Part shown: in pieces, positions 12,053-26,312 of the stretch | Numbering within the stretch: position 1 is the first letter of the stretch | Layout: each line of letters begins with the position of its first letter | IMG/VR virus record: IMGVR_UViG_3300022660_000062 | Coordinates: 1-64,000 of that record | DNA length: 64,000 bases | Reading direction: 5' to 3' (one strand) | From: a virus | Taxonomy: Duplodnaviria; Heunggongvirae; Uroviricota; Caudoviricetes | Program-made: the position numbers and the translations under genes | Notes under the pieces: model-generated | What the model saw: only the letters and a program-made list of their open reading frames with translations | Database searches by the model: none | What the model was told of the DNA's origin: nothing

Positions 12053-12130
12053 TCCTTCAATGGTGCAGTTGGTAGACACCGCCTTGCTATGGAAAGGCGT
12101 TGCGTTGGTTCGAGTCCAACTTGATGGACC
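12053..12130 (+). tRNA. Atypical tRNA-like gene with 8-nt anticodon loop (GCTATGGA) and one acceptor mismatch
   Basis: Acceptor CCTTCAA/TTGATGG (one T-T mismatch), D-loop AGTTGGTAGA, anticodon stem GCCTT/AAGGC around an 8-nt loop, T-arm GTTGG-TTCGAGT-CCAAC, discriminator A, CCA encoded. Confidence 0.4.
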
Positions 12131-12237
12131 AGAATGTCGTAGATCTGAATCTAGGCGGGGTGGCGAAGTGCCCAAAATCCTCGTGAGGGCAATTGCAGGG
12201 GAGCTGCTTCTAGGGCTGAAGGCTCCTTACGACATCT
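12131..12237 (+). other. Structured element closed by a long inverted repeat (ATGTCGTAG...CTACGACAT)
   Basis: A 9-bp inverted repeat at 12134-12142 and 12227-12235 encloses about 85 nt of GC-rich sequence with internal hairpins (GGAGC...GCTCC, GGCGGGG...). No credible ORF. Confidence 0.3.
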
Positions 12238-13316: not shown

Positions 13317-13453
13317 GGCCCAATGGTGGAATTGGTAGACACAAGGGACTTGTTGGATGCCAGTGCTAATCGAGTAGGGGCAGCACCTACATCCGACACC
13401 AAAAATCCCTCGCTGGAGACAGCGTACCGGTTCGAGTCCGGTTTGGGCCACCA
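13317..13453 (+). tRNA. tRNA-Leu-like gene (inferred anticodon TAA) carrying a ~50-nt insertion in the anticodon loop
   Basis: Acceptor GGCCCAA/TTGGGCC is a perfect match, with Leu-type D-arm GTGGAATTGGTAGACAC and variable-arm hairpin CGCTGGAGACAGCG. T-arm is ACCGG-TTCGAGT-CCGGT, discriminator A, CCA encoded. Anticodon stem halves AGGGA (13344-13348) and TCCCT (13406-13410) are separated by 57 nt. Removing 13352-13401 restores a CTTAAAA loop. Confidence 0.5.
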
Positions 13454-13467
13454 GAAAGATCAATAGT

Positions 13468-14388
13468 ATGAGTACAAAAGAAGATTATAACTTATCTAGA
13501 CCAAGAATTGCGTGTCCTCATTGTGGTCGAGGAATAACAAAAGCTTGTTATGATCGGCATGTTTCAGTTTGTTTGAAAAATCAGTCACAGATCCAAAGAG
13601 AGTCTTACAAGTTAGATCATGATGGTTTGAATTGTAAGTTCTGTGGAAAGTTGTGCAAGAGCACAAACAGTTTGATACAACACGAAATCCGATGTAAAGA
13701 TAATCCCCATAGGAATTGTCATACCGCTTTGCAAGATCATGTTGCTAACAATGTTAGAGGTCAAACAAAGCATACATCTTTGCAGATACGGAAACAAAGT
13801 GAGCGCTTACAAGATCTGTATGCAAGTGGTGAGCTTATTCCTGCAAGTAAAGGAAAGCCTGGAAGCTTTTCCGGATGTAAACACAGCATAGAAACAAAAC
13901 GCAAGATTGGAGAACATGTTTCTGCGTCACGAAAAGCAGGATATGCTTCAGGTAGAATAACACCAGCAAAGGGTGTTGGTTGTGGTAAGTATTCTTACAT
14001 ACAGTACAAAGACAGAACGTACATGTTGCGAAGCACATACGAGTTCATCTATGCGCTGTATCTTTTGAAGAACGGTATTGAATTTGAACTGGAAGCTATT
14101 CGAGTTCCAGCAACAAATTCTTCTACTGTTTCAAACTCAACATTCATTTCAGATTTTAGTTACGATAACAAGGTTGTAGAAATCAAGGGAATTCCAAGCG
14201 AAAAAGACTCATGTATAAAAGATGCATTTGAGTCCGCTGGATATACATTTGTAGAACTATTTGAATCTGATATCGCTATCTATAAAGAGTGGCTGAAATC
14301 AAACAATATTCCTATCGATGAATTACTAGTTAAAATCAAAGATCATCATGACAAGAAAGACTATTTTGTCTTCACATTTGATAACTAG
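13468..14388 (+). CDS. Homing-endonuclease-like protein (C2HC zinc fingers + NUMOD3-like motif + PD-(D/E)XK-like C-terminal domain)
   Basis: Motifs CPHCGRG...H and CKFCGKLCKSTNSLIQHEIRC, NUMOD3-like FSGCKHSIETKRKIGEHVS, and a C-terminal STYEFIYALYLL...VVEIKG nuclease-like domain. It is a paralog of the ORFs at 1152, 15055 and 21881. Confidence 0.7.
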   Translation: MSTKEDYNLSRPRIACPHCGRGITKACYDRHVSVCLKNQSQIQRESYKLDHDGLNCKFCGKLCKSTNSLIQHEIRCKDNPHRNCHTALQDHVANNVRGQTKHTSLQIRKQSERLQDLYASGELIPASKGKPGSFSGCKHSIETKRKIGEHVSASRKAGYASGRITPAKGVGCGKYSYIQYKDRTYMLRSTYEFIYALYLLKNGIEFELEAIRVPATNSSTVSNSTFISDFSYDNKVVEIKGIPSEKDSCIKDAFESAGYTFVELFESDIAIYKEWLKSNNIPIDELLVKIKDHHDKKDYFVFTFDN

Positions 14389-15054: not shown

Positions 15055-15726
15055 ATGTACATTTGCCCATTTTGTAACAAAGAATGCAAAAATCAAAACA
15101 GTTTAACAAATCATAAACGATTTTGTAAACTCAATCCAGACCATATTATTATGCCACCTCATAGGAAAGGCATTCCTTCATGGAATAGTGGCTTGACAAG
15201 CAAAGATGATTCTAGAATTCTTTGTGGTTCAGAATTATCAGATGCAGTTAAACAGGGAATGATGAATTCTAATTATATCCCAACAGGACGAGCTTCAACC
15301 GATGAGAAAGAACAACTAAGAAGACAAAAGTTGTCCGTGGTAGCAAAAGAAAGAAACTTGGGTGGATATGTTCCAGGCTCTGGAAGAGGCAAGAAGGGTT
15401 GGTATAAAGGATTTTTCTGCGATTCTACATATGAGTTAGTTTATGTAATCTTCAATCTTGATAACGGTATACCATTCAAGAAATGTCAGAAAGTTTATCA
15501 ATATCTGATTGATGGTGAAACTCATAACTATCATCCTGATTTTGAATTAGCAGATGGGACGCTTGTTGAGATAAAAGGTTATCATAACAGTCTTGTTGAT
15601 ATAAAAGCTGCATCTGTTGTAGATACAAAAATTGACATTCTTTATGAGTCAGACTTGAAGTATGCATTTGACTGGGTTGAAAGTCATTATGAATACAAAG
15701 AATTATCTGACTTATATGAAAAATAA
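15055..15726 (+). CDS. Homing-endonuclease-like protein (C2HC zinc finger + PD-(D/E)XK-like domain)
   Basis: Motif CPFCNKECKNQNSLTNHKRFC, then STYELVYVIF...PDFELADGTLVEIKG. Preceded by an ATTGTATAATATGTTATATAA junction-like motif. Paralog family. Confidence 0.7.
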   Translation: MYICPFCNKECKNQNSLTNHKRFCKLNPDHIIMPPHRKGIPSWNSGLTSKDDSRILCGSELSDAVKQGMMNSNYIPTGRASTDEKEQLRRQKLSVVAKERNLGGYVPGSGRGKKGWYKGFFCDSTYELVYVIFNLDNGIPFKKCQKVYQYLIDGETHNYHPDFELADGTLVEIKGYHNSLVDIKAASVVDTKIDILYESDLKYAFDWVESHYEYKELSDLYEK

Positions 15727-15826: not shown

Positions 15827-15927
15827 TAAACAATTTACTACTTGATTGAAAGTAGTTGAAGTTATTTACATTCTATCATATAATATGGATGTAAACGATA
15901 GATAAATTCTTAGATGATTACAAGGAG

Positions 15928-17598
15928 ATGACCTGTATGAGCAAATTGTCTAATGCAGCAATGGAAATGCGTGAAGAGGCAACTCTGCGCAGAGACGAAA
16001 CCGTCGTCAATTTTATGGGTGGTGACTCTTATGTTATCAACCCTCTGGACACCTTGAAGATGATTACCGCGTCTTCTATTTATGGTGAGCCTTCCTATTA
16101 TCGGGATAGTGCTAGCGCAAAGAAGACTTGCGGTAAATACACTCTGGATAGTCGGTATGTTACTGACTCTGTTATTCCTTCCGAGTATGAAGGTAAGCAG
16201 ACCAATGTGGTTATGGAGGAGGCAATTGATGCCGCTCTGAACTACGATTTTGCAGGAACTTTGCAGTGGGCAATTGAATTGCGTAATGAGTTCAATATGC
16301 GCTTGAATCCTCAGGTAATCATGGTTCGGGCTGCCCTGCATCCGAAGCGTGCTGAGTTTACTGCAGCAAATCCTGGTGAGTTTGATAAGATCAATCAGCA
16401 GGTGATGTCTCGTGCCGATGAGCCGATGACTCAGATGGCTTACTACTTGTACAAGAACAAGGGCAAGAAGAACAACATTCCTTCTGTTATTAAGCGCTCT
16501 TGGGCAACTAAGCTGAGTAAGCTCGGCAGATATCCTGTTGCTAAGTACAAGAATCATGAAATCGGCATGATCAATGCGGTTCGTTTGTGTCATGCAAACT
16601 CAGCTGTCATTGATGAACTGATGACTTCTGGCACTGTTGAGGTGTCTGAAGATAAGAAGACTTGGGAGAATCTTCGCTCCGAAGGCAAGTCTTGGAAGGA
16701 AATTTTCCAGACTGTTGATATGGGTCACATGGCTCTACTTCGTAACCTGCGCGGTGTATTCAGCGAGGTAGACGATGTAGCATTCTGTAAGGAATATCTG
16801 GATAAGCTGAAGGCTGGTGTTCTTACCGGCAAACAGTTCCCGTTCCGTTACTATGCAGCAATGAATGCTGTTAACAGCAGTAGCAAGTGCAATCATCGTT
16901 CTATGATCATTGATGCTCTGGAGGAGTGCTTTGACATTGCTCTTGAGAACTATCCTAAGTTAAAGGGCAAGACGATGTGTCTGTCTGATAACTCCGGGTC
17001 TGCTTGGGGCACAATGAACTCTGAGTATGGCACTGTTACAATTGCAGAAATTGACAACTTGTCTTCCGTTATTACTGCAGCTTGCTCCGAAGATGGTTAT
17101 GTTGGTGAATTTGGTGACAGACTCATTGTTCATCCTGTTAGCAAGCGTCAGGGCGTCCTGAATCAAGCCAAGCAGATCTCTATGGATCGCGGTCGTAAGG
17201 TTGGTGGTTCCACCGAGGGTGGTATCTGGGAGTTCTTCTACAATGCTATCCAGAACAAGGAACATTGGGATAACATCTTCATCTACTCTGACCAGCAAGC
17301 AGGCCATGGTGGTTTGTATGGTACTTCCACTCAGTCTGCTAAGTACTCCAAGGCAGGATTCGGCTGCGGTAGTGCATGGGGTGGCAACTACATCAACGTG
17401 TATAAGTTGATCCTGGAGTACCGTAAGAAGGTTAATCCTCATGTTAACGTCTTCTCTATTCAGACTGCAGGTTATGATAACATTGTAATTCCTGAAATGG
17501 CTTATCGTACTGCTATTCAGTATGGTTGGACCGGCAAGGAAGCGGTGTTTGCCTCTGAATACATTCGTCAGTGGAATGACATTGAAAACCGTAACTAA
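15928..17598 (+). CDS. rsr: Ro60 (Rsr) homolog: TROVE domain + vWA domain with MIDAS motif
   Basis: N-terminal TROVE signature NFMGGDSYVINPLDTLKMITASSIYGEPSYY; C-terminal vWA with MIDAS-like DNSGSAWG; AAGGAG RBS. The minus-strand ORF 15910-16593 is an antisense artefact. Confidence 0.85.
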   Translation: MTCMSKLSNAAMEMREEATLRRDETVVNFMGGDSYVINPLDTLKMITASSIYGEPSYYRDSASAKKTCGKYTLDSRYVTDSVIPSEYEGKQTNVVMEEAIDAALNYDFAGTLQWAIELRNEFNMRLNPQVIMVRAALHPKRAEFTAANPGEFDKINQQVMSRADEPMTQMAYYLYKNKGKKNNIPSVIKRSWATKLSKLGRYPVAKYKNHEIGMINAVRLCHANSAVIDELMTSGTVEVSEDKKTWENLRSEGKSWKEIFQTVDMGHMALLRNLRGVFSEVDDVAFCKEYLDKLKAGVLTGKQFPFRYYAAMNAVNSSSKCNHRSMIIDALEECFDIALENYPKLKGKTMCLSDNSGSAWGTMNSEYGTVTIAEIDNLSSVITAACSEDGYVGEFGDRLIVHPVSKRQGVLNQAKQISMDRGRKVGGSTEGGIWEFFYNAIQNKEHWDNIFIYSDQQAGHGGLYGTSTQSAKYSKAGFGCGSAWGGNYINVYKLILEYRKKVNPHVNVFSIQTAGYDNIVIPEMAYRTAIQYGWTGKEAVFASEYIRQWNDIENRN

Positions 17599-17769
17599 CT
17601 AAAGTAGATGGCTGAAGCGGCCGTAACAGTTCCTTCAAAAATAACATCTTACATACTCTACAAATGTTTTCTTTTGAACTCTTTTATAACTTCACCTCCT
17701 GTTATAAATCCATTTTTTCAAACTGTTACATTTCATTCTCAGCCTTTACATAGATAAACTAGATACTAC

Positions 17770-18005
17770 GATTGTTGATGCAGTTGGTCCAGTTACTTCG
17801 GATAATAAATTTTACTGTCAAACAAAATTTTAGTTGGTTCAAATCCAACAACGTCTATTGCGGGCGTAAGTGCTTATGCTGGAACAGTATTTCTCAACAA
17901 TCTTTGAAAACATAGTTTGCTGATGCAGCTGAAAGAGTTACTTCAAATTTGACTGTTAATCAAAAACTTGAGACCACATATCTCTTTCCTTTATTCTCAG
18001 CTTCT
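17770..18005 (+). ncRNA. Structured RNA elements B and C sharing the GATGCAG-N6-(C/G)AGTTACTTC motif
   Basis: Motif copies at 17777-17801 and 17922-17948. Copy B is followed by a perfect T-arm-like hairpin GTTGG-TTCAAAT-CCAAC (17836-17852). Long-range complementarity between GCAGCTGA (17927-17934) and TCAGCTTC (17996-18003). No ORF. Confidence 0.3.
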
Positions 18006-18026
18006 ATATAACAATAAAATATCATT

Positions 18027-18175
18027 TGTGATGCAGTCGAATCAGTTACTTCTTGCTTAGGGAGCACGGGGTCGTGGGTTCGAGTCCCACCTGTTCGTTT
18101 AAGCAGCGACAGTAGCTCAGTCGGGAGAGCACGTACAATAGTATTCACTGGTTCATTTATTCTCACAAATTGTTA
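18027..18175 (+). ncRNA. Y-RNA-like candidate (copy D) with circularly permuted tRNA-like module immediately downstream of the Ro60 homolog
   Basis: Motif GATGCAGTCGAATCAGTTACTTC is followed by a T-arm GTGGG-TTCGAGT-CCCAC and an acceptor-like hairpin CTGT(T)CG-TTTAAGCAG-CGACAG. Then come TA and a canonical D-arm GCTCAGTCGGGAGAGC. Outer helices ATTTGTGA/TCACAAAT and GAATCAGT/ACTGGTTC enclose the module. Confidence 0.45.
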
Positions 18176-18279
18176 TTGTATAATATATCATATGTTTCGA
18201 TGCGGTAGTTCGAGATACTTCAACATTGTTTTTCTGGATGTACTTAAGACCTTGAACAATTGTTCTCGAAACATCTTAT

Positions 18280-18357
18280 GGGCCCGTAGCTCAGTTTTGG
18301 GAGAGCATCTGATTTGCACTCAGAAGGTCAGGAGTTCGAGCCTCCTCGGGTCCACCA
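18280..18357 (+). tRNA. tRNA-Ala (anticodon TGC)
   Basis: Acceptor GGGCCCG/CGGGTCC with the G3:U70 Ala identity pair, anticodon loop TTTGCAC, T-arm AGGAG-TTCGAGC-CTCCT, discriminator A, CCA encoded. Preceded by a long imperfect hairpin (18196-18278) that carries a fifth motif variant, GATGCGGTAGTTCGAGATACTTC. Confidence 0.9.
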
Positions 18358-18656
18358 GCTTACTCGAGTAAGACGCTTGTCAGTCAAGTGGTGGAACATC
18401 TGATGGTTGACGCTGTAAAAGTTAAATGCGTTCGAGTGCGGAGCGAAGGTTGGTCGCCGCATAAACATAAATTGTATATAAAGATATAAGATATTATGAA
18501 AGGGTTATGCGCCATGTTTGAACTTAGATTTGAACTCAATATGGATAATGGTGGATACCCTCATTATGATATTTTTAACAATCGTTGTGAAAGAATAACA
18601 TCACATGTATTGCGAATAACTTGAATGTACAGTATATATAACTGATCAGCATTGAG

Positions 18657-21836: not shown

Positions 21837-21880
21837 TTATTGTATATAAATATGCATAAGTAATAATGGAGCATATTTAT

Positions 21881-22564
21881 ATGAGCGAAGAAACTAAGTT
21901 TCAGTGTGAATACTGTAATAAAATATGCAAAAATGCTAATAGTTTAGCACAGCATCAGATAAGATGTTCTTCAAATCCAAATAGAATTCACTCTTCCTTT
22001 GTTGCTGGTTTTAATACAAAAGGAAGACAAGCTTGGAATACTGGGCGTACAAAAGAAACAGATGAGCGTGTGGCAAAACAAGCGGAACAACAACGCAAGT
22101 TTTATGAAACACATCCTGGAACATTTACAGGAAAGACTCATACTGAAACATATAAGTTAATGATGAGTGAACTTGCTCATGAACGAGGCCTTGGTGGGTT
22201 CAATATGAGAAGCAAGGGCATTCATTATCATGGATCAAAATTAGATTCAACTTATGAGCTAGCTGTTGCTCAGTCTCTTGATGAAAACAGTATTGTTTGG
22301 GAGAGACCAAAATCATTTACATATGTTGGATTTGATAACAAACAACATAGATATGTCCCTGATTTCTATCTTCCAGATTATGACATTTATCTTGATCCGA
22401 AAAATGATTTTCTAATCAACAATGTTAATCCTGGTCTTGGTTACAATGACTGTGACAAGATTAAACTTGTTGAACATCAGTTGGGAATTAGAGTCTTAAT
22501 TCTTGATTCAGAGCATCTTACATGGGACAAGATAAAATCTAAGATTGATGCCGAAGTCCCATAG
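21881..22564 (+). CDS. Homing-endonuclease-like protein (C2HC zinc finger + NUMOD3-like + PD-(D/E)XK-like domain)
   Basis: Motifs CEYCNKICKNANSLAQHQIRC, FTGKTHTETYKLMMSELAHERGLGG, and STYELAVAQSL...YVPDFYLPDYDIYLDPKNDF. GGAG RBS before the ATG at 21881. The 3' end (stop at 22562-22564) overlaps the first 15 nt of the tRNA at 22550. Confidence 0.7.
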   Translation: MSEETKFQCEYCNKICKNANSLAQHQIRCSSNPNRIHSSFVAGFNTKGRQAWNTGRTKETDERVAKQAEQQRKFYETHPGTFTGKTHTETYKLMMSELAHERGLGGFNMRSKGIHYHGSKLDSTYELAVAQSLDENSIVWERPKSFTYVGFDNKQHRYVPDFYLPDYDIYLDPKNDFLINNVNPGLGYNDCDKIKLVEHQLGIRVLILDSEHLTWDKIKSKIDAEVP

Positions 22565-22648: not shown

Positions 22649-22676
22649 TTGACAAGTGCATAGTAAAATATATAAT
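22649..22676 (+). promoter_or_regulatory. Strong consensus sigma-A promoter (TTGACA-16-TATAAT) driving a noncoding region
   Basis: CTTGACAAGTGCATAGTAAAATATATAATC. Confidence 0.6.
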
Positions 22677-22677
22677 C

Positions 22678-23430
22678 ATTGACAACTCAGTGCAGAACGA
22701 ATACCATCGTGCTGAGAACTCGATCCTGCCTGCGGGCGCCTGGAATGCGAAAAACATTCACGAACGATAGCTTGTGATAGCTAGAGGGTTTATGGAGTGA
22801 TTCATAGATTCCGCCTCTGAACTGAGGTCCAGGATGGAAGGGTGTGCTGACATAGTTGTAATCAAAGATACCGTCTTATCGCTCCCACAATAGACAGCTT
22901 GGTTAACAGCCGAGCCGAATCCAAGTTAGGTATTAGCTGGTGACTGTTACAAACCTTGGAAAGACCAACAAGGAAGTTTGCGTTGATCCCTCAGCAATGA
23001 GGAGTATAAGATAAGGTCGGAGGTGCGAGTAGCTCAAACGCAGTCGACTTAAGATGAAAAAATGCTATAAAGAGCTTGTAGATAGTAATAGAAAGTTACT
23101 AATATCAAATTTCTGAATGGCGAGTGAAAGTTGCAAGTAATCAGTCTTGTACAGGAATTATAATGGAGAACGGTGAGTGAGCCTTAAGGTCAAGCCGATG
23201 GCTCCTCAAGGAAGTTGGAAGGCTTCTGGGGCAAGAAGTTTATAGTGGACGCATTGTAAGCTCAGACTTGTCTCCCTGTTGATCGAATATGGTTGAAGGC
23301 TAAACAGTTGGTAAGGCGAAGGCCTGTTGATGAACTTATATATTTTACTATGTGCTTGTCGTGCGTTTTCATTCCTCCTTTCGTGATAACGAGCTTGTCG
23401 ATTATTCGGCGAGCTCGTTATTTGTTTGTT
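22678..23430 (+). ncRNA. About 750-nt promoter-to-terminator transcript with no credible ORF (unclassified structured RNA)
   Basis: It lies between the consensus promoter at 22649-22676 and the terminator at 23388-23430. GC is locally elevated with many short hairpins (CCTCTGAACTGAGG, GGCGCC, AGTCGACT). Only spurious short or antisense ORFs are present. Confidence 0.35.
23388..23430 (+). terminator. Rho-independent terminator
   Basis: AACGAGCTTGTCGATTATTCGGCGAGCTCGTT followed by ATTTGTTTGTTT. Confidence 0.55.
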
Positions 23431-24812: not shown

Positions 24813-26312
24813 ATGTTAACTTATCTTATCCCCGCAGCGGTAGTCGTTGCCTTGCTGATTCTGTTGTTTATTACAGGTTATGTCAAGTCACCCCCTGATA
24901 CCGCTTATCTTATCAGTGGTGTTCGGAAGAAAACTGTCATTGGTAAGGCTGCTCTGAAGATTCCCTTCTTTGAGCGAATTGACAAGCTGACTCTAAAGTT
25001 GATTCCTATTGATGTGAAGACTTCAAGCACAGTTCCTACTGCAGATTACATTGACATCAGTGTTGATGCAATCGTAAACGTCAAGATTTCAAGTAAGCCT
25101 GAACTGCTTGCTCTGGCTGCTGAAAACTTCCTAAATCAGCCGATGGATTACATTGCTCGTGTTGCTAGAGAAGTGCTGGAAGGCAACATGCGTGAAATTG
25201 TTGGTCAGATGAAGTTGGAAGAGATGGTTACTGACCGTCAGCTGTTCTCAGAAAAGGTTAAGCAGAATGCTGCTCCCGATCTGGCTGCAATGGGTCTTGA
25301 AATCGTTGCATTCAATGTTCAGAATTTCGACGATCGCAACGGCGTAATTGAGAATCTGGGTGTTGACAATGTTGAGCAGATTCGTAAAAAGGCTGCTATC
25401 GCAAAGGCTGATGCTCACAAGGAAATTGCAATTGCCGAAGCAAATGCAAGTAAGGATGCAAATGATGCTCAGGTAGCATCCGATCTGGAGATTGCTCGTA
25501 AGCGGAATGAGCTTGCTTTGGAGCAGGCTGAACTTCAGAAGAAGGCTGACATCAAGTGGGCAGAAACCGAAGCTGCAAAGGGCATTCAGGCTGAGGAACA
25601 GCGTAAGATTCTTGAGATTTCTACTGCAAATGCAAATCTGGCTAAGCAGGAGAAGGAGATTGAGCTGAAAGCTCGTGAGGTTGAGATTACTGAGCGTAGA
25701 CTGGAAGCAGAAGTCAAGAAGACTGCTGATGCAAAGAAGTACGCAGCTCAGCAGGAAGCAGATGCTAAGTTGTATGCCACTCAGAAGCAAGCTGATGCAG
25801 ATCTCTTTAAGCGTCAGCGTGAAGCAGAAGCTGAGAAGTTCGAAGCAGAACAGAAGGCTGAAGCAACAAAGGCTGCATCTGATGCTCAGAAGGTTGCTAT
25901 GGAAAATGAGGCAGCAGGTATTGCAGCAAAAGGTCGTGCTGAAGCTGAAGCAATTCGAGCAAAAGCCGAAGCCGAAGCAGCTGGTATTCTGAAGAAGGCA
26001 GAAGCAATGGAACGCTATGGTGAAGCTGCAAAGATGGACATGCAGCTCCAGGCTCTCAAGGTTTACTTTGAGCAGCTTCCTGCAATGGCTCAGGCAATCG
26101 GTGAAGGCTATCAGGGTGTTGACAAGATTGTCATGATGGGATCTGATTCCAATCAGCTGGCAAACAACATCATGAATACTACCACTCAGTTGAGTGAGGG
26201 TATGGCAGCAAGCCTCGGAATTGATCTGAAGACTCTGCTGGCTGGTGTGCTGGGACACACTATCGGTAGTAAGTCAAGCTGCGACTGCGGCGGCAACTGC
26301 CACGAAAAGTAA
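24813..26312 (+). CDS. Flotillin-like protein (SPFH/band-7 domain + EA-rich coiled coil; FloT/YuaG family)
   Basis: N-terminal TM helix and SPFH domain (...YLISGVRKKTVIGKAALKIPFFERIDKLTLKLIPIDV...VDAIVNVKI...), then a long Ala/Glu/Lys-rich coiled coil. The minus-strand ORF 25248-26258 is an antisense artefact. Confidence 0.8.
   Translation: MLTYLIPAAVVVALLILLFITGYVKSPPDTAYLISGVRKKTVIGKAALKIPFFERIDKLTLKLIPIDVKTSSTVPTADYIDISVDAIVNVKISSKPELLALAAENFLNQPMDYIARVAREVLEGNMREIVGQMKLEEMVTDRQLFSEKVKQNAAPDLAAMGLEIVAFNVQNFDDRNGVIENLGVDNVEQIRKKAAIAKADAHKEIAIAEANASKDANDAQVASDLEIARKRNELALEQAELQKKADIKWAETEAAKGIQAEEQRKILEISTANANLAKQEKEIELKAREVEITERRLEAEVKKTADAKKYAAQQEADAKLYATQKQADADLFKRQREAEAEKFEAEQKAEATKAASDAQKVAMENEAAGIAAKGRAEAEAIRAKAEAEAAGILKKAEAMERYGEAAKMDMQLQALKVYFEQLPAMAQAIGEGYQGVDKIVMMGSDSNQLANNIMNTTTQLSEGMAASLGIDLKTLLAGVLGHTIGSKSSCDCGGNCHEK

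What the first reader, a model, noticed from the sequence alone, without database searches (positions are those of the whole stretch)
15928..18280. Phage-encoded Ro60 (TROVE+vWA) gene followed by a cluster of candidate Y RNAs with permuted tRNA-like modules
The ORF at 15928-17598 has a clear TROVE signature and a vWA MIDAS motif. The next 680 nt are noncoding and contain three copies of a conserved ~23-nt motif GATGCAG-N6-CAGTTACTTC (17777, 17922, 18033), plus a diverged fourth copy at 18206. Copy D (18027-18175) has the linear order T-arm (GTGGGTTCGAGTCCCAC), acceptor-like hairpin (CTGTTCG-TTTAAGCAG-CGACAG), TA, then D-arm (GCTCAGTCGGGAGAGC). That is a tRNA circularly permuted at the anticodon loop, the same architecture reported for bacterial YrlA-type Y RNAs encoded next to rsr. 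Outer helices (ATTTGTGA/TCACAAAT and GAATCAGT/ACTGGTTC) could form the Ro-binding stem. A Ro60/Y-RNA module inside a phage tRNA island points to phage manipulation of structured-RNA quality control or tRNA/rRNA processing.
Basis: partly seen in the sequence, partly recalled or inferred. Interest (0 to 1): 0.85.

Follow-up and report, generated by a model that had tools for sequence, protein, structure and literature searches.

The report
Phage Ro60 gene with Y-RNA array
A large phage carries its own copy of the ring-shaped RNA-binding protein Ro60 and, next to it, six small partner RNAs ("Y RNAs"), two of which imitate a rearranged tRNA. The pairing is real and well conserved, but it is a kind already described in bacteria and phages.

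Summary
The gene (probable start 15937, end 17598) encodes a Ro60-fold protein with a TROVE ring, a vWA domain and a DxSxS MIDAS motif. Its AlphaFold model matches only Ro60 structures over its full length.

Downstream lie five Y-RNA-like elements, not four: Y1 to Y5, 17610-18274. A sixth, Y0, lies at 2532-2689. All share one module:
- an outer stem ending GA/UC
- a 5' loop WGCRG
- a covarying inner stem, followed by UUACUUC
- a 3' loop ending AUUC

Y4 and Y0 also carry a T arm, a closed acceptor stem and a D arm in the permuted YrlA order. Compensatory changes in relatives support this. Rfam YrlA scores Y4 at 30.5 bits, below the family cut-off of 69.

A model of the shared module finds 129 further copies in related phage and MAG loci. 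All 129 are on the Ro60 strand and close to the gene.

Chen et al. (2014) already reported YrlA-like RNAs beside TROVE genes in 22 phages. A later paper lists Bacillus phage G among them, and phage G is the closest isolate here (54% identity). I therefore call this a new member of a known kind. The size and modularity of the array is a modest extension. Expression, Ro60 binding and function remain untested.

The parts
15937..17598 (+). Ro60 (TROVE + vWA/MIDAS) gene. The mechanical ORF starts at 15928. The likely start is the ATG at 15937, downstream of AAGGAG at 15922-15927.
   Evidence: The AF2 model (pLDDT 78.7, pTM 0.80) matches phiLo Ro60, human and Xenopus Ro60 and D. radiodurans Rsr (E 2e-15 to 2e-9). 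DxSxS is invariant.
17610..17744 (+). Y1: Y-RNA-like element. Outer stem GGCUGA/UCAGCC, 5' loop AGCGGCC, inner stem GUAACAGUU/AACUGUUAC, 3' loop AUUUCAUUC. The apical part has two hairpins, one with loop UUCACCUCCU. No tRNA-like part.
   Evidence: MFE recovers both stems; z -5.24, 0 of 200 shuffles. Orthologues in L002, L004 and L005.
17770..17902 (+). Y2: Y-RNA-like element. Outer stem GAUUGUUGA/UCAACAAUC, 5' loop UGCAGUU, inner stem GGUCCAGU/GCUGGAAC (7 of 8 pairs, with one G-A mismatch that is kept in relatives), 3' loop AGUAUUUC. The apical part has a T-arm-like hairpin GUUGGUUCAAAUCCAAC and a short hairpin, but no D arm.
   Evidence: My strict closure script missed it because of the single mismatch.
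17919..18001 (+). Y3: short Y-RNA-like element. Outer stem GCUGA/UCAGC, 5' loop UGCAGCU, inner stem GAAAGAG/CUCUUUC, 3' loop CUUUAUUC.
   Evidence: model R1 40.2 bits, E 4e-7.
18024..18170 (+). Y4: YrlA-type Y RNA. It has the shared module (AUUUGUGA/UCACAAAU; GAAUCAGU/ACUGGUUC) and then, in order, a V hairpin, a T arm, a closed acceptor stem, UA and a D arm. This is a tRNA permuted at the anticodon position.
   Evidence: Rfam YrlA 30.5 bits, E 2e-4; R1 54 bits. U8:A14, G15:C48, G18/G19 with U55/C56 and U54:A58 can all form, read directly from the sequence.
18192..18274 (+). Y5: short Y-RNA-like element. Outer stem AUGUUUCGA/UCGAAACAU, 5' loop UGCGGUA, inner stem GUUCGAG/CUUGAAC, 3' loop AAUUGUUC. 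It ends 5 nt before tRNA-Ala (18280-18357).
   Evidence: z -3.41, 0 of 200 shuffles; R1 47.7 bits.
2532..2689 (+). Y0: second YrlA-type element, 13 kb upstream, starting 2 nt after tRNA-Pro. It has the shared module (AUGAUUGA/UCAAUCAU; AUAUCAGU/ACUGAUAU), a long V hairpin, T arm GAAGGUUCAAGUCCUUC, an 8-bp closed acceptor stem and a degenerate D arm. Its A15:U48 is compensatory to Y4's G15:C48.
   Evidence: MFE recovers the module, the T arm and the acceptor stem; z -2.79.

Best explanation
This is a phage-encoded Ro60 ribonucleoprotein system: one Ro60 gene plus six genes for Y RNAs.

Shown computationally:
- The protein has the Ro60 ring plus vWA fold.
- Each RNA closes its 5' and 3' ends into two covarying helices around a conserved asymmetric internal loop (5' GA-WGCRG, 3' ..AUUC-UC).
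- Two of the RNAs carry a YrlA-type permuted tRNA mimic.
- The shared module travels with this Ro60 subfamily across many phages, always on the same strand.

Inferred from the Ro60/Y-RNA literature (Xenopus, D. radiodurans, Salmonella, Thermus phage phiLo):
- The conserved stem-loop-stem is the Ro60 docking site.
- The variable apical part of each paralogue is the effector or specificity end.
- One Ro60 ring could therefore be loaded with different adaptors that gate its cavity or tether it to host RNA enzymes, such as PNPase or other 3'-5' exonucleases, or to tRNA-recognising enzymes.

The elements sit inside a tRNA island and abut tRNA genes. This suggests co-transcription with the tRNAs, with the ends generated by RNase P and 3'-end processing. 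The likely purpose is remodelling or quality control of structured RNA (tRNA, rRNA, the phage's own many small RNAs) during infection. That last step is the least certain.
For: Protein:
- Foldseek top 13 hits are all Ro60 structures, full length.
- Profile hit to phiLo Ro60, E 3e-10.
- PHROG 850 'RNA-binding protein', E 8e-44.
- MIDAS DxSxS invariant.

RNA module:
- 6 motif hits against 0.13 expected.
- Closure found for 82 of 104 real motif hits, against 23 of 520 with the downstream sequence shuffled. A 3' TTC that the search did not impose is present in 72 of 95 real closures, against 11 of 284 shuffled.
- 70 elements: 95.5% of cells paired, all 16 pairs show compensatory changes, 0 of 500 shuffles reach this, slid controls give 33-48%.

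tRNA-like class:
- RNAalifold recovers 6 helices, with compensatory changes at 27 of 35 pairs. 95.1% of cells are paired against 36-48% when slid.
- Rfam YrlA hits of 26-37 bits in relatives and 30.5 bits here.

Linkage to Ro60:
- Model R1 gives 78 of 78 hits (IMG/VR loci) and 51 of 51 hits (independent MAG loci) on the Ro60 strand, mostly within about 2 kb of the gene.
- In a pattern scan of IMG/VR that did not select for Ro60, 17 of 19 well-formed elements lay on Ro60-encoding contigs, against 6 of 112 ill-formed matches.
- Bacillus phage G (54% identity Ro60) has at least 7 copies around gp540.

Precedent: YrlA beside TROVE in 254 bacteria and 22 phages (PMC4201824). phiLo Ro60 binds two phage Y-like RNAs and forms a complex with host PNPase in vitro (PMC12135203).
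Against: - There is no expression or binding evidence of any kind.
- Rfam YrlA is below its gathering score (30.5 against 69), and there is no hit to metazoan Y_RNA.
- The published 5' motif GNCGAAN0-1G is only approximated in the window copies (UGAUGCAG, UGAAGCGG, CGAUGCGG).
- No RtcB or PNPase was found among the roughly 20 larger ORFs of the window that I scanned, so any effector would have to be host-encoded.
- A search for a fixed -10 box upstream of the elements was inconclusive.
- The A4 alignment uses closures that were selected by pairing, so its pair counts are partly circular. The shuffle control and the independent model hits offset this only in part.
Confidence: 0.8

Rival explanations
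1. The stem/internal-loop/stem module is an RNA-processing cassette, for example an RNase III-type site like those of T7 early transcripts. It would cut small RNAs and tRNAs out of a polycistronic tRNA-island transcript, and Ro60 would play no part in recognising it.
For: Two helices around a conserved asymmetric internal loop is also the layout of phage RNase III sites (my own knowledge). The elements abut tRNA genes: Y0 starts 2 nt after tRNA-Pro and Y5 ends 5 nt before tRNA-Ala. No clear individual promoters were found.
Against: The window has at least 21 tRNAs spread over 22 kb, yet 5 of 6 elements sit directly behind the Ro60 gene. 129 of 129 model hits are next to and co-oriented with Ro60. 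In the unselected scan, well-formed elements were almost confined to Ro60 contigs. The tRNA-like members match YrlA, a proven Ro60 ligand class.
Confidence: 0.07
2. The elements are Ro60 cargo rather than Ro60 regulators. The module would be a leader-trailer duplex that hands tRNA-shaped precursors to Ro60 for chaperoning or maturation, not an adaptor that tethers effectors.
For: In related phages the same stems flank a complete normal-order cloverleaf. One example is L025 5701-5773, called tRNA-Lys(UUU), 58.9 bits with the Rfam tRNA model, with 7 of 7 acceptor pairs. M. smegmatis YrlA is cut by RNase P and receives CCA (PMC4201824).
Against: The window's own tRNA-like copies (Y4, Y0) are permuted, have closed acceptor stems and lack an anticodon arm, so no functional tRNA can be released. 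Four of the six copies have no tRNA-like part at all. Most normal-order relatives have only 3-5 acceptor pairs.
Confidence: 0.08
3. The elements are decaying tRNA genes or a tRNA-derived mobile repeat that happens to accumulate in the tRNA island, with no function.
For: T-arm and D-arm sequences are present, and the setting is a tRNA island with probable homing endonuclease genes.
Against: The conserved part is not tRNA-like. Both helices and all tRNA-like helices keep pairing through many compensatory changes across loci whose Ro60 proteins are only 40-98% identical. The order Y1 to Y5 is collinear in relatives. All copies are on one strand.
Confidence: 0.03

Closest known systems
Bacillus phage G gp540 (TROVE protein) and its YrlA-like RNA (Chen et al. 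2014, RNA 20:1715, PMC4201824; phage G is named in PMC12135203)
   Same: It is the closest isolated relative of the protein (54% identity over 99% of the length). The gene also sits in a tRNA/tmRNA island. It has the same module, GAWGCGG-N6-CAGTTACTTC ... AAATAATC-TC, in at least 7 copies. One copy (L001 1783-1938) has the T arm, acceptor stem and D arm order, with an Rfam YrlA score of 36.2 bits.
   Different: In phage G most copies lie upstream of the gene, whereas here they lie downstream. The apical modules are unrelated in sequence. I could not read the 2014 supplementary table, so I do not know how many of the phage G copies were reported.
Salmonella Typhimurium Rsr with YrlA and YrlB; Rfam RF02553 YrlA
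   Same: One Ro60 gene with adjacent same-strand Y RNAs. One RNA is a permuted tRNA mimic (V, T, acceptor stem-loop, D), and another lacks that domain. The YUAY at the start of the V region is present (UUAC here). A 5' motif containing GA-A/U-G is present.
   Different: Here there are six RNAs rather than two. There is no rtcBA operon. Both strands of the docking region are conserved here, whereas in YrlA only the 5' strand is recognisable. The score is below the Rfam gathering cut-off.
Thermus phage phiLo Ro60 with Yrl1 and Yrl2 (NAR 2025, PMC12135203; PDB 9KOP, 9L5Y)
   Same: It is the best structural and sequence match in the PDB. It is phage-encoded and has adjacent Y-like RNAs with a stem-bulge-stem layout and a CGAA-type motif. 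Binding to Ro60 and a ternary complex with host PNPase were shown in vitro.
   Different: Only about 17% identity. It has two RNAs, upstream of the gene, and no tRNA-like domain is described (0 occurrences of 'tRNA-like' in that paper).
Deinococcus radiodurans Rsr with Yrn1 (the RYPER complex with PNPase)
   Same: The mechanistic model I adopt comes from here: the Y RNA stem docks on Ro60 and the distal module tethers an exonuclease. Yrn1 has its tRNA-like parts in the normal D-to-T order, as do the 'class N' elements in phages related to this one.
   Different: The window's own tRNA-like copies are of the YrlA (permuted) type. No PNPase link has been tested here.

Membership tests
Ro60 / Rsr (TROVE + vWA) proteins | HEAT-repeat TROVE ring | tested here: met
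   Foldseek top 13 hits are all Ro60/Rsr, E 2e-15 to 2e-9, 499-613 aligned columns. Profile hit to phiLo Ro60, E 3e-10. Pfam PF05731 alone is below its cut-off for this sequence (19.7 against 23 bits), but it is precomputed for many 71-80% identical homologues.
Ro60 / Rsr (TROVE + vWA) proteins | C-terminal vWA domain with a MIDAS DxSxS motif | tested here: met
   D354-N-S356-G-S358 is invariant in 33 homologues. The model is alpha/beta over residues 345-554. Secondary Foldseek hits are to vWA domains.
Ro60 / Rsr (TROVE + vWA) proteins | Binds Y RNA on the outer surface and misfolded RNA ends in the cavity | not testable with these tools
   Needs EMSA, CLIP or a structure.
YrlA-type bacterial/phage Y RNA (Chen et al. 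2014; Rfam RF02553) | Encoded within 4 kb of the Ro60 gene on the same strand | tested here: met
   Y1 to Y5 lie 12-676 nt downstream on the same strand. Y0 is the exception, at 13 kb. 129 of 129 model hits in relatives are on the same strand.
YrlA-type bacterial/phage Y RNA (Chen et al. 2014; Rfam RF02553) | Reaches the Rfam gathering score | tested here: not met
   30.5 bits against 69 (E 2e-4 in a 1-kb search, full model 1-114). Relatives, including phage G, score 26-37 bits. Y0 gives no YrlA hit.
YrlA-type bacterial/phage Y RNA (Chen et al. 2014; Rfam RF02553) | V hairpin, T arm, closed acceptor stem-loop and D arm, in that order | tested here: met
   Y4 and Y0. RNAalifold on 11 elements recovers all of these helices, with compensatory changes at 27 of 35 pairs and 0 of 500 shuffles reaching this. 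Not met by Y1, Y2, Y3 and Y5, which correspond to YrlB-like partners.
YrlA-type bacterial/phage Y RNA (Chen et al. 2014; Rfam RF02553) | 5' motif GNCGAAN0-1G | tested here: inconclusive
   The window copies read xUGAUGCAG, xUGAAGCGG and UCGAUGCGG, so the GA-W-G core is kept but C3 is often U and A6 is often U. Exact GGCGAAG occurs in relatives L025, L027 and L028.
YrlA-type bacterial/phage Y RNA (Chen et al. 2014; Rfam RF02553) | YUAY at the start of the V region, and nucleotides for tRNA tertiary pairs including a covarying 15:48 Levitt pair | tested here: met
   UUAC is present in five of the six copies; Y1 has UUCC, which lacks the A. Y4 has U8, A14, G15:C48, G18, G19, U54, U55, C56 and A58. 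Y0 has A15:U48. These were read from the sequence.
YrlA-type bacterial/phage Y RNA (Chen et al. 2014; Rfam RF02553) | Expressed, bound by Ro60, and modified by TruB/DusA | not testable with these tools
   Needs experiments.
Functional tRNA | Open acceptor stem with a free 3' end, and an anticodon arm | tested here: not met
   ARAGORN and the Rfam tRNA model do not call Y4 or Y0. The acceptor stem is closed by a loop and there is no anticodon arm.
Metazoan Y RNA (Rfam Y_RNA) | Match to the family model | tested here: not met
   No hit at E up to 10 in 17500-18500. Only the general layout is shared: terminal stem, internal loop, variable distal part.

The most novel reading that the evidence does not exclude
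This phage lineage may use the Ro60 docking module as a portable handle, fitting it onto interchangeable RNA heads. The heads seen are permuted tRNA mimics, short hairpins, an anti-Shine-Dalgarno-like loop (Y1) and, in related phages, whole normal-order cloverleaves with real anticodon loops such as Lys-UUU. One Ro60 ring could then be directed to several different host targets. Alternatively, it could display tRNA decoys to host tRNA-targeting defence nucleases, which would make the array a counter-defence device rather than a housekeeping quality-control system.
Probability: 0.12. Interest if true: 0.75.

Novelty: new member of a known kind. Interest (0 to 1): 0.4.

Why it matters
The system gives a compact natural test of the adaptor model for Y RNAs. 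There is one Ro60 and six paralogous RNAs that share a sharply defined docking module but differ in their distal parts. More than a hundred related elements are available for comparison.

The conserved loops (GAWGCRG and AUUC) are precise targets for mutagenesis. The two covarying helices allow disrupt-and-restore designs.

The result also shows that the curated YrlA model misses this whole gut and rumen phage lineage, including the copies in phage G. A lineage-specific model would improve annotation of large phages.

It does not change what is known in principle. Phage Ro60 with tRNA-like Y RNAs was described in 2014, and a phage Ro60-Y RNA structure was published in 2025.

Tried and rejected
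- A single-protein scan of IMG/VR found nothing. The alignment-based scan worked.
- Pfam and NCBIfam on the single protein were uninformative or sub-threshold.
- Rfam at gathering thresholds finds no Y RNA. Y0 gets no YrlA hit even at E up to 10.
- My strict closure script missed Y2 and some relatives that have one mismatch in the inner stem.
- My first structure string for alignment A4 was one column out of register. It was corrected.
- Model R1 was built from spliced mini-constructs (stems plus a GAAA loop). It spans long apical inserts only with default filters. With filters off it breaks Y4, Y0, Y1 and Y2 into partial hits. For those elements the evidence is therefore the folds and the manual or script closure.
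- The test for a fixed-position -10 box upstream of the elements was inconclusive. The apparent enrichment lies inside the AT-rich outer stem itself.
- CCUCC in apical loops is not a general feature. It appears only in the Y1 orthologues, plus chance cases.
- No element was found in the Desulfovibrio phage locus, whose Ro60 is 36% identical (L008). The module is therefore specific to this Ro60 subfamily.
- The supplementary tables of Chen et al. 2014 and the 2020 Annual Review article are not held in the library.
- I considered and rejected reading Y4 or Y0 as split or permuted functional tRNA genes, because the acceptor stem is closed and there is no anticodon arm.
Full report
**1. What is in the sequence**

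The window is part of a large phage genome. It carries 21 ARAGORN-called tRNA genes, all on the + strand between 396 and 22635. It also carries a ROOL RNA and topoisomerase II subunits.

The ORF 15928-17598 exists. Its homologues begin MSKLSNA. The Shine-Dalgarno-like AAGGAG at 15922-15927 is correctly spaced for the ATG at 15937, so I take 15937 as the start.

The 680 nt that follow contain no convincing ORF. Only 0.13 matches are expected, and 0 of 100 shuffles reach six. The positions are 17614, 17777, 17922, 18030, 18199 and 2538.

**2. The protein is a Ro60**

Taken alone, the sequence only grazes Pfam TROVE (19.7 bits against a cut-off of 23). Other evidence is much stronger:
- PHROG 850 'RNA-binding protein' matches at E 8e-44.
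- A 9-sequence profile matches the Ro60 of Thermus phage phiLo (PDB 9KOP, 9L5Y) at E 3e-10.
- An AlphaFold2 model built on 33 homologues (pLDDT 78.7, pTM 0.80) gives Ro60 structures as its 13 best PDB matches. These are phiLo, human, Xenopus and D. radiodurans Rsr, with E 2e-15 to 2e-9 and about 500-610 aligned columns.
- The next hits are isolated vWA domains.
- The MIDAS DxSxS (D354, S356, S358) is invariant.

The family is large. There are 3773 hits among the 8000 candidates scored. Close relatives lie on contigs of up to about 230 kb, and more distant ones on contigs of up to about 390 kb.

The closest isolated phage is Bacillus phage G, gp540, at 54% identity. It is annotated as a TROVE ribonucleoprotein and also sits in a tRNA/tmRNA island. 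MAG contigs carrying 40-66% identical copies come mostly from rumen and gut Clostridia, with some from Synergistaceae. That suggests the kind of host.

**3. The RNAs share one module**

Each motif copy is the 5' half of a larger element (and direct reading). The layout is:
- an outer stem of 5-12 bp whose last two pairs are G-C and A-U (5' ..GA, 3' UC..)
- a 6-8-nt 5' loop, WGCRGNN
- an inner stem of 7-10 bp, usually ending ..AGU/ACU..
- UUACUUC
- a variable apical insert of 22-120 nt
- on the way back, a 7-9-nt 3' loop that ends AUUC

The window elements are:

| Element | Coordinates |
|---|---|
| Y0 | 2532-2689 |
| Y1 | 17610-17744 |
| Y2 | 17770-17902 |
| Y3 | 17919-18001 |
| Y4 | 18024-18170 |
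| Y5 | 18192-18274 |

Thermodynamic folds recover the two stems for Y0, Y1, Y2, Y4 and Y5. The z-scores are -5.2 (Y1), -3.4 (Y5), -2.8 (Y0), -2.4 (Y4) and -2.0 (Y2). For Y3 the fold of a slightly wider stretch (17912-18026) also recovers both stems, but it is not distinguishable from shuffles (z -0.84, 33 of 200 shuffles fold at least as well).

**4. The module is conserved, covaries and travels with Ro60**

The same motif occurs 1-7 times, always on the Ro60 strand, in most of 39 IMG/VR loci and in phage G.

A closure search succeeds (score at least 13) for 82 of 104 real motif hits. It succeeds for only 23 of 520 hits when the downstream sequence is shuffled. A 3' TTC that the search did not require precedes the outer stem in 72 of 95 real closures, against 11 of 284 shuffled ones.

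In an alignment of 70 distinct elements, with the apical inserts replaced by GAAA, 95.5% of cells pair. All 16 pairs show compensatory changes, no shuffle out of 500 reaches the observed values, and slid registers give 33-48%. These closures were chosen by pairing, so this count is partly circular.

Independent support comes from a covariance model of the module (R1). It finds 78 hits in 32 IMG/VR loci and 51 hits in 80 MAG loci that played no part in building it. All 129 hits are on the Ro60 strand, and most lie within about 2 kb of the gene. In the window the model gives only one weak hit elsewhere (E 0.54).

A pattern scan of IMG/VR that did not select for Ro60 returned mostly single chance matches. 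Of the 19 matches with a good closure and the TTC, 15 had a Ro60 homologue in the fetched stretch, and 2 more lie on a known Ro60 contig. Among the 112 ill-formed matches, only 6 had a Ro60 homologue.

A phage whose Ro60 is only 36% identical has no such element.

**5. The tRNA-like class**

After UUACUUC, Y4 has the following, in order:
- a small hairpin, in the V position
- the T arm GUGGG-UUCGAGU-CCCAC
- an acceptor-like stem closed by a loop
- UA
- the D arm GCUC-AGUCGGGA-GAGC

Rfam's YrlA model aligns over its full length, but at 30.5 bits. The cut-off is 69, and the E-value is 2e-4 in a 1-kb search.

I aligned eleven such elements: Y4, Y0, phage G and eight from other loci. RNAalifold, given no hint, returns all six helices, with 27 of 35 pairs showing compensatory changes. 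For that structure 95.1% of cells pair, against 36-48% in slid registers, and 0 of 500 shuffles reach it.

Close relatives with 94-98% identical proteins keep the array collinear, Y1 to Y5 followed by the tRNA. Over the same distance they completely exchange the T-stem and acceptor-stem sequences of Y4.

Read on tRNA numbering, Y4 has U8, A14, G15:C48, G18, G19, U54, U55, C56 and A58. Y0 has A15:U48. This is the same compensatory Levitt pair that Chen et al. stressed for YrlA.

The UUAC of the conserved UUACUUC is the YUAY that begins the V region in YrlA.

Only Y4 and Y0 have the full domain. Y2 has a T-arm-like hairpin and a short hairpin. Y1, Y3 and Y5 have none. In that respect they resemble YrlB and the extra Y RNAs of other species.

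**6. Comparison with what is known**

Chen et al. 2014 (PMC4201824) reported YrlA-like RNAs within 4 kb of, and co-oriented with, TROVE genes in 254 bacteria and 22 phages. A later paper names mycobacteriophages, CcrColossus and Bacillus phage G among them (PMC12135203).

That later paper also shows a phage Ro60 binding two phage Y-like RNAs and forming a complex with host PNPase. A jumbo-phage survey lists TROVE proteins 'with a tRNA-like partner' (PMC7824862).

The kind is therefore known, and the closest isolate is already in the literature.

What this window and its relatives add:
- The array is large: five adjacent elements plus one distal one here, and at least seven in phage G.
- The docking module is sharply defined on both strands. 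In YrlA only the 5' strand is recognisable.
- The whole lineage, phage G included, scores 26-37 bits with Rfam YrlA and so escapes standard annotation.
- In some related phages the same stems flank a normal-order cloverleaf. One of these is a tRNA-Lys(UUU) with seven acceptor pairs. This recalls the D-to-T orientation of D. radiodurans Yrn1.

**7. Mechanism**

Shown by computation:
- the Ro60 fold
- the conserved, structured RNA elements
- their genomic coupling to Ro60

Inferred from the Ro60 literature:
- The stem-loop-stem docks on Ro60.
- The apical parts confer specificity or tether effectors.
- The tRNA-like domain engages tRNA-recognising enzymes or stabilises the RNA.

No RtcB or PNPase appeared among the window ORFs I scanned, so partners would be host proteins.

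Y0 starts 2 nt after tRNA-Pro, and Y5 ends 5 nt before tRNA-Ala. This suggests co-transcription with the tRNAs and end formation by tRNA-processing enzymes. A test for dedicated promoters was inconclusive.

**8. Rivals**

I considered three rivals, all with low probability:
- a Ro60-independent processing cassette
- Ro60 cargo rather than Ro60 regulator
- decaying tRNA genes

None of them explains the strict coupling to Ro60 together with the YrlA-type domain and the pervasive compensatory change.

**9. Verdict**

The function is untested. I rate this a new member of a known kind, of moderate interest.

Noticed in passing
window 22662-23344 (+); also L014 1881-2524: A full-length ROOL RNA (281.9 bits, Rfam RF03087) lies about 4.4 kb downstream of the Y-RNA array, at the end of the tRNA island. 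A ROOL (284 bits) also lies beside the Ro60/Y locus in a related phage contig. I did not measure whether ROOL and Ro60 co-occur more often than chance.
   Followed up: partly
L025 5672-5804, L026 1953-2083, L027 1798-1928, L028 5715-5850, L040 3831-3966, L047 1544-1681: In related phages the same Y-RNA stems flank a normal-order cloverleaf with a real anticodon arm. ARAGORN calls Lys-UUU, Cys-GCA, 'Stop'-UUA and Ser-GCU. L025 5701-5773 scores 58.9 bits as tRNA and has 7 of 7 acceptor pairs, while the others have 3-5. These could be Ro60-handled pre-tRNAs or tRNA decoys.
   Followed up: partly
window 17680-17702: The second apical hairpin of Y1 (UUAUAAC-UUCACCUCCU-GUUAUAA) shows CACCUCCU in its loop, which resembles the anti-Shine-Dalgarno end of 16S rRNA. 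CCUCC is kept in three close relatives while the flanks change. It is not a general feature of the family.
   Followed up: partly
window 12054-12131 (+); L025 7064-7136; L028 3094-3165: ARAGORN reports a 'tRNA-???' with a two-base anticodon 'at', that is, an abnormal anticodon loop. The same oddity recurs in two related phages, so it looks like a conserved unusual tRNA-like gene rather than noise.
   Followed up: no
window 13317-13450 (+): The Rfam tRNA model matches a 134-nt stretch end to end (42.8 bits). ARAGORN does not call it. It may be a tRNA gene with an insert of about 60 nt.
   Followed up: no
window 1152-1700, 13468-14388, 15055-15726, 21866-22564 (+): Four ORFs between the tRNA genes. 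Three give weak C2H2 zinc-finger hits, one of them also a weak Phage_endo_I hit, all but one (the C2H2_jaz hit of 15055-15726, exactly at its cut-off of 22.6 bits) below Pfam cut-offs. The fourth (13468-14388) has no Pfam hit and shares a C-terminal ..VEIKG motif with 15055-15726. They are probably homing endonucleases seeded through the tRNA island. Two of them flank the Ro60 gene region.
   Followed up: partly
window 2530-2532 and 18274-18280: Y0 begins 2 nt after the 3' end of tRNA-Pro(CGG). Y5 ends 5 nt before the 5' end of tRNA-Ala(UGC). The Y RNAs and tRNAs are therefore probably cut from common precursors.
   Followed up: partly
window 24813-26312 (+): A 499-aa SPFH/Band 7 (flotillin-like) protein (PF01145, E 4e-23) is encoded just after the RNA island. 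This is unusual cargo for a phage.
   Followed up: no
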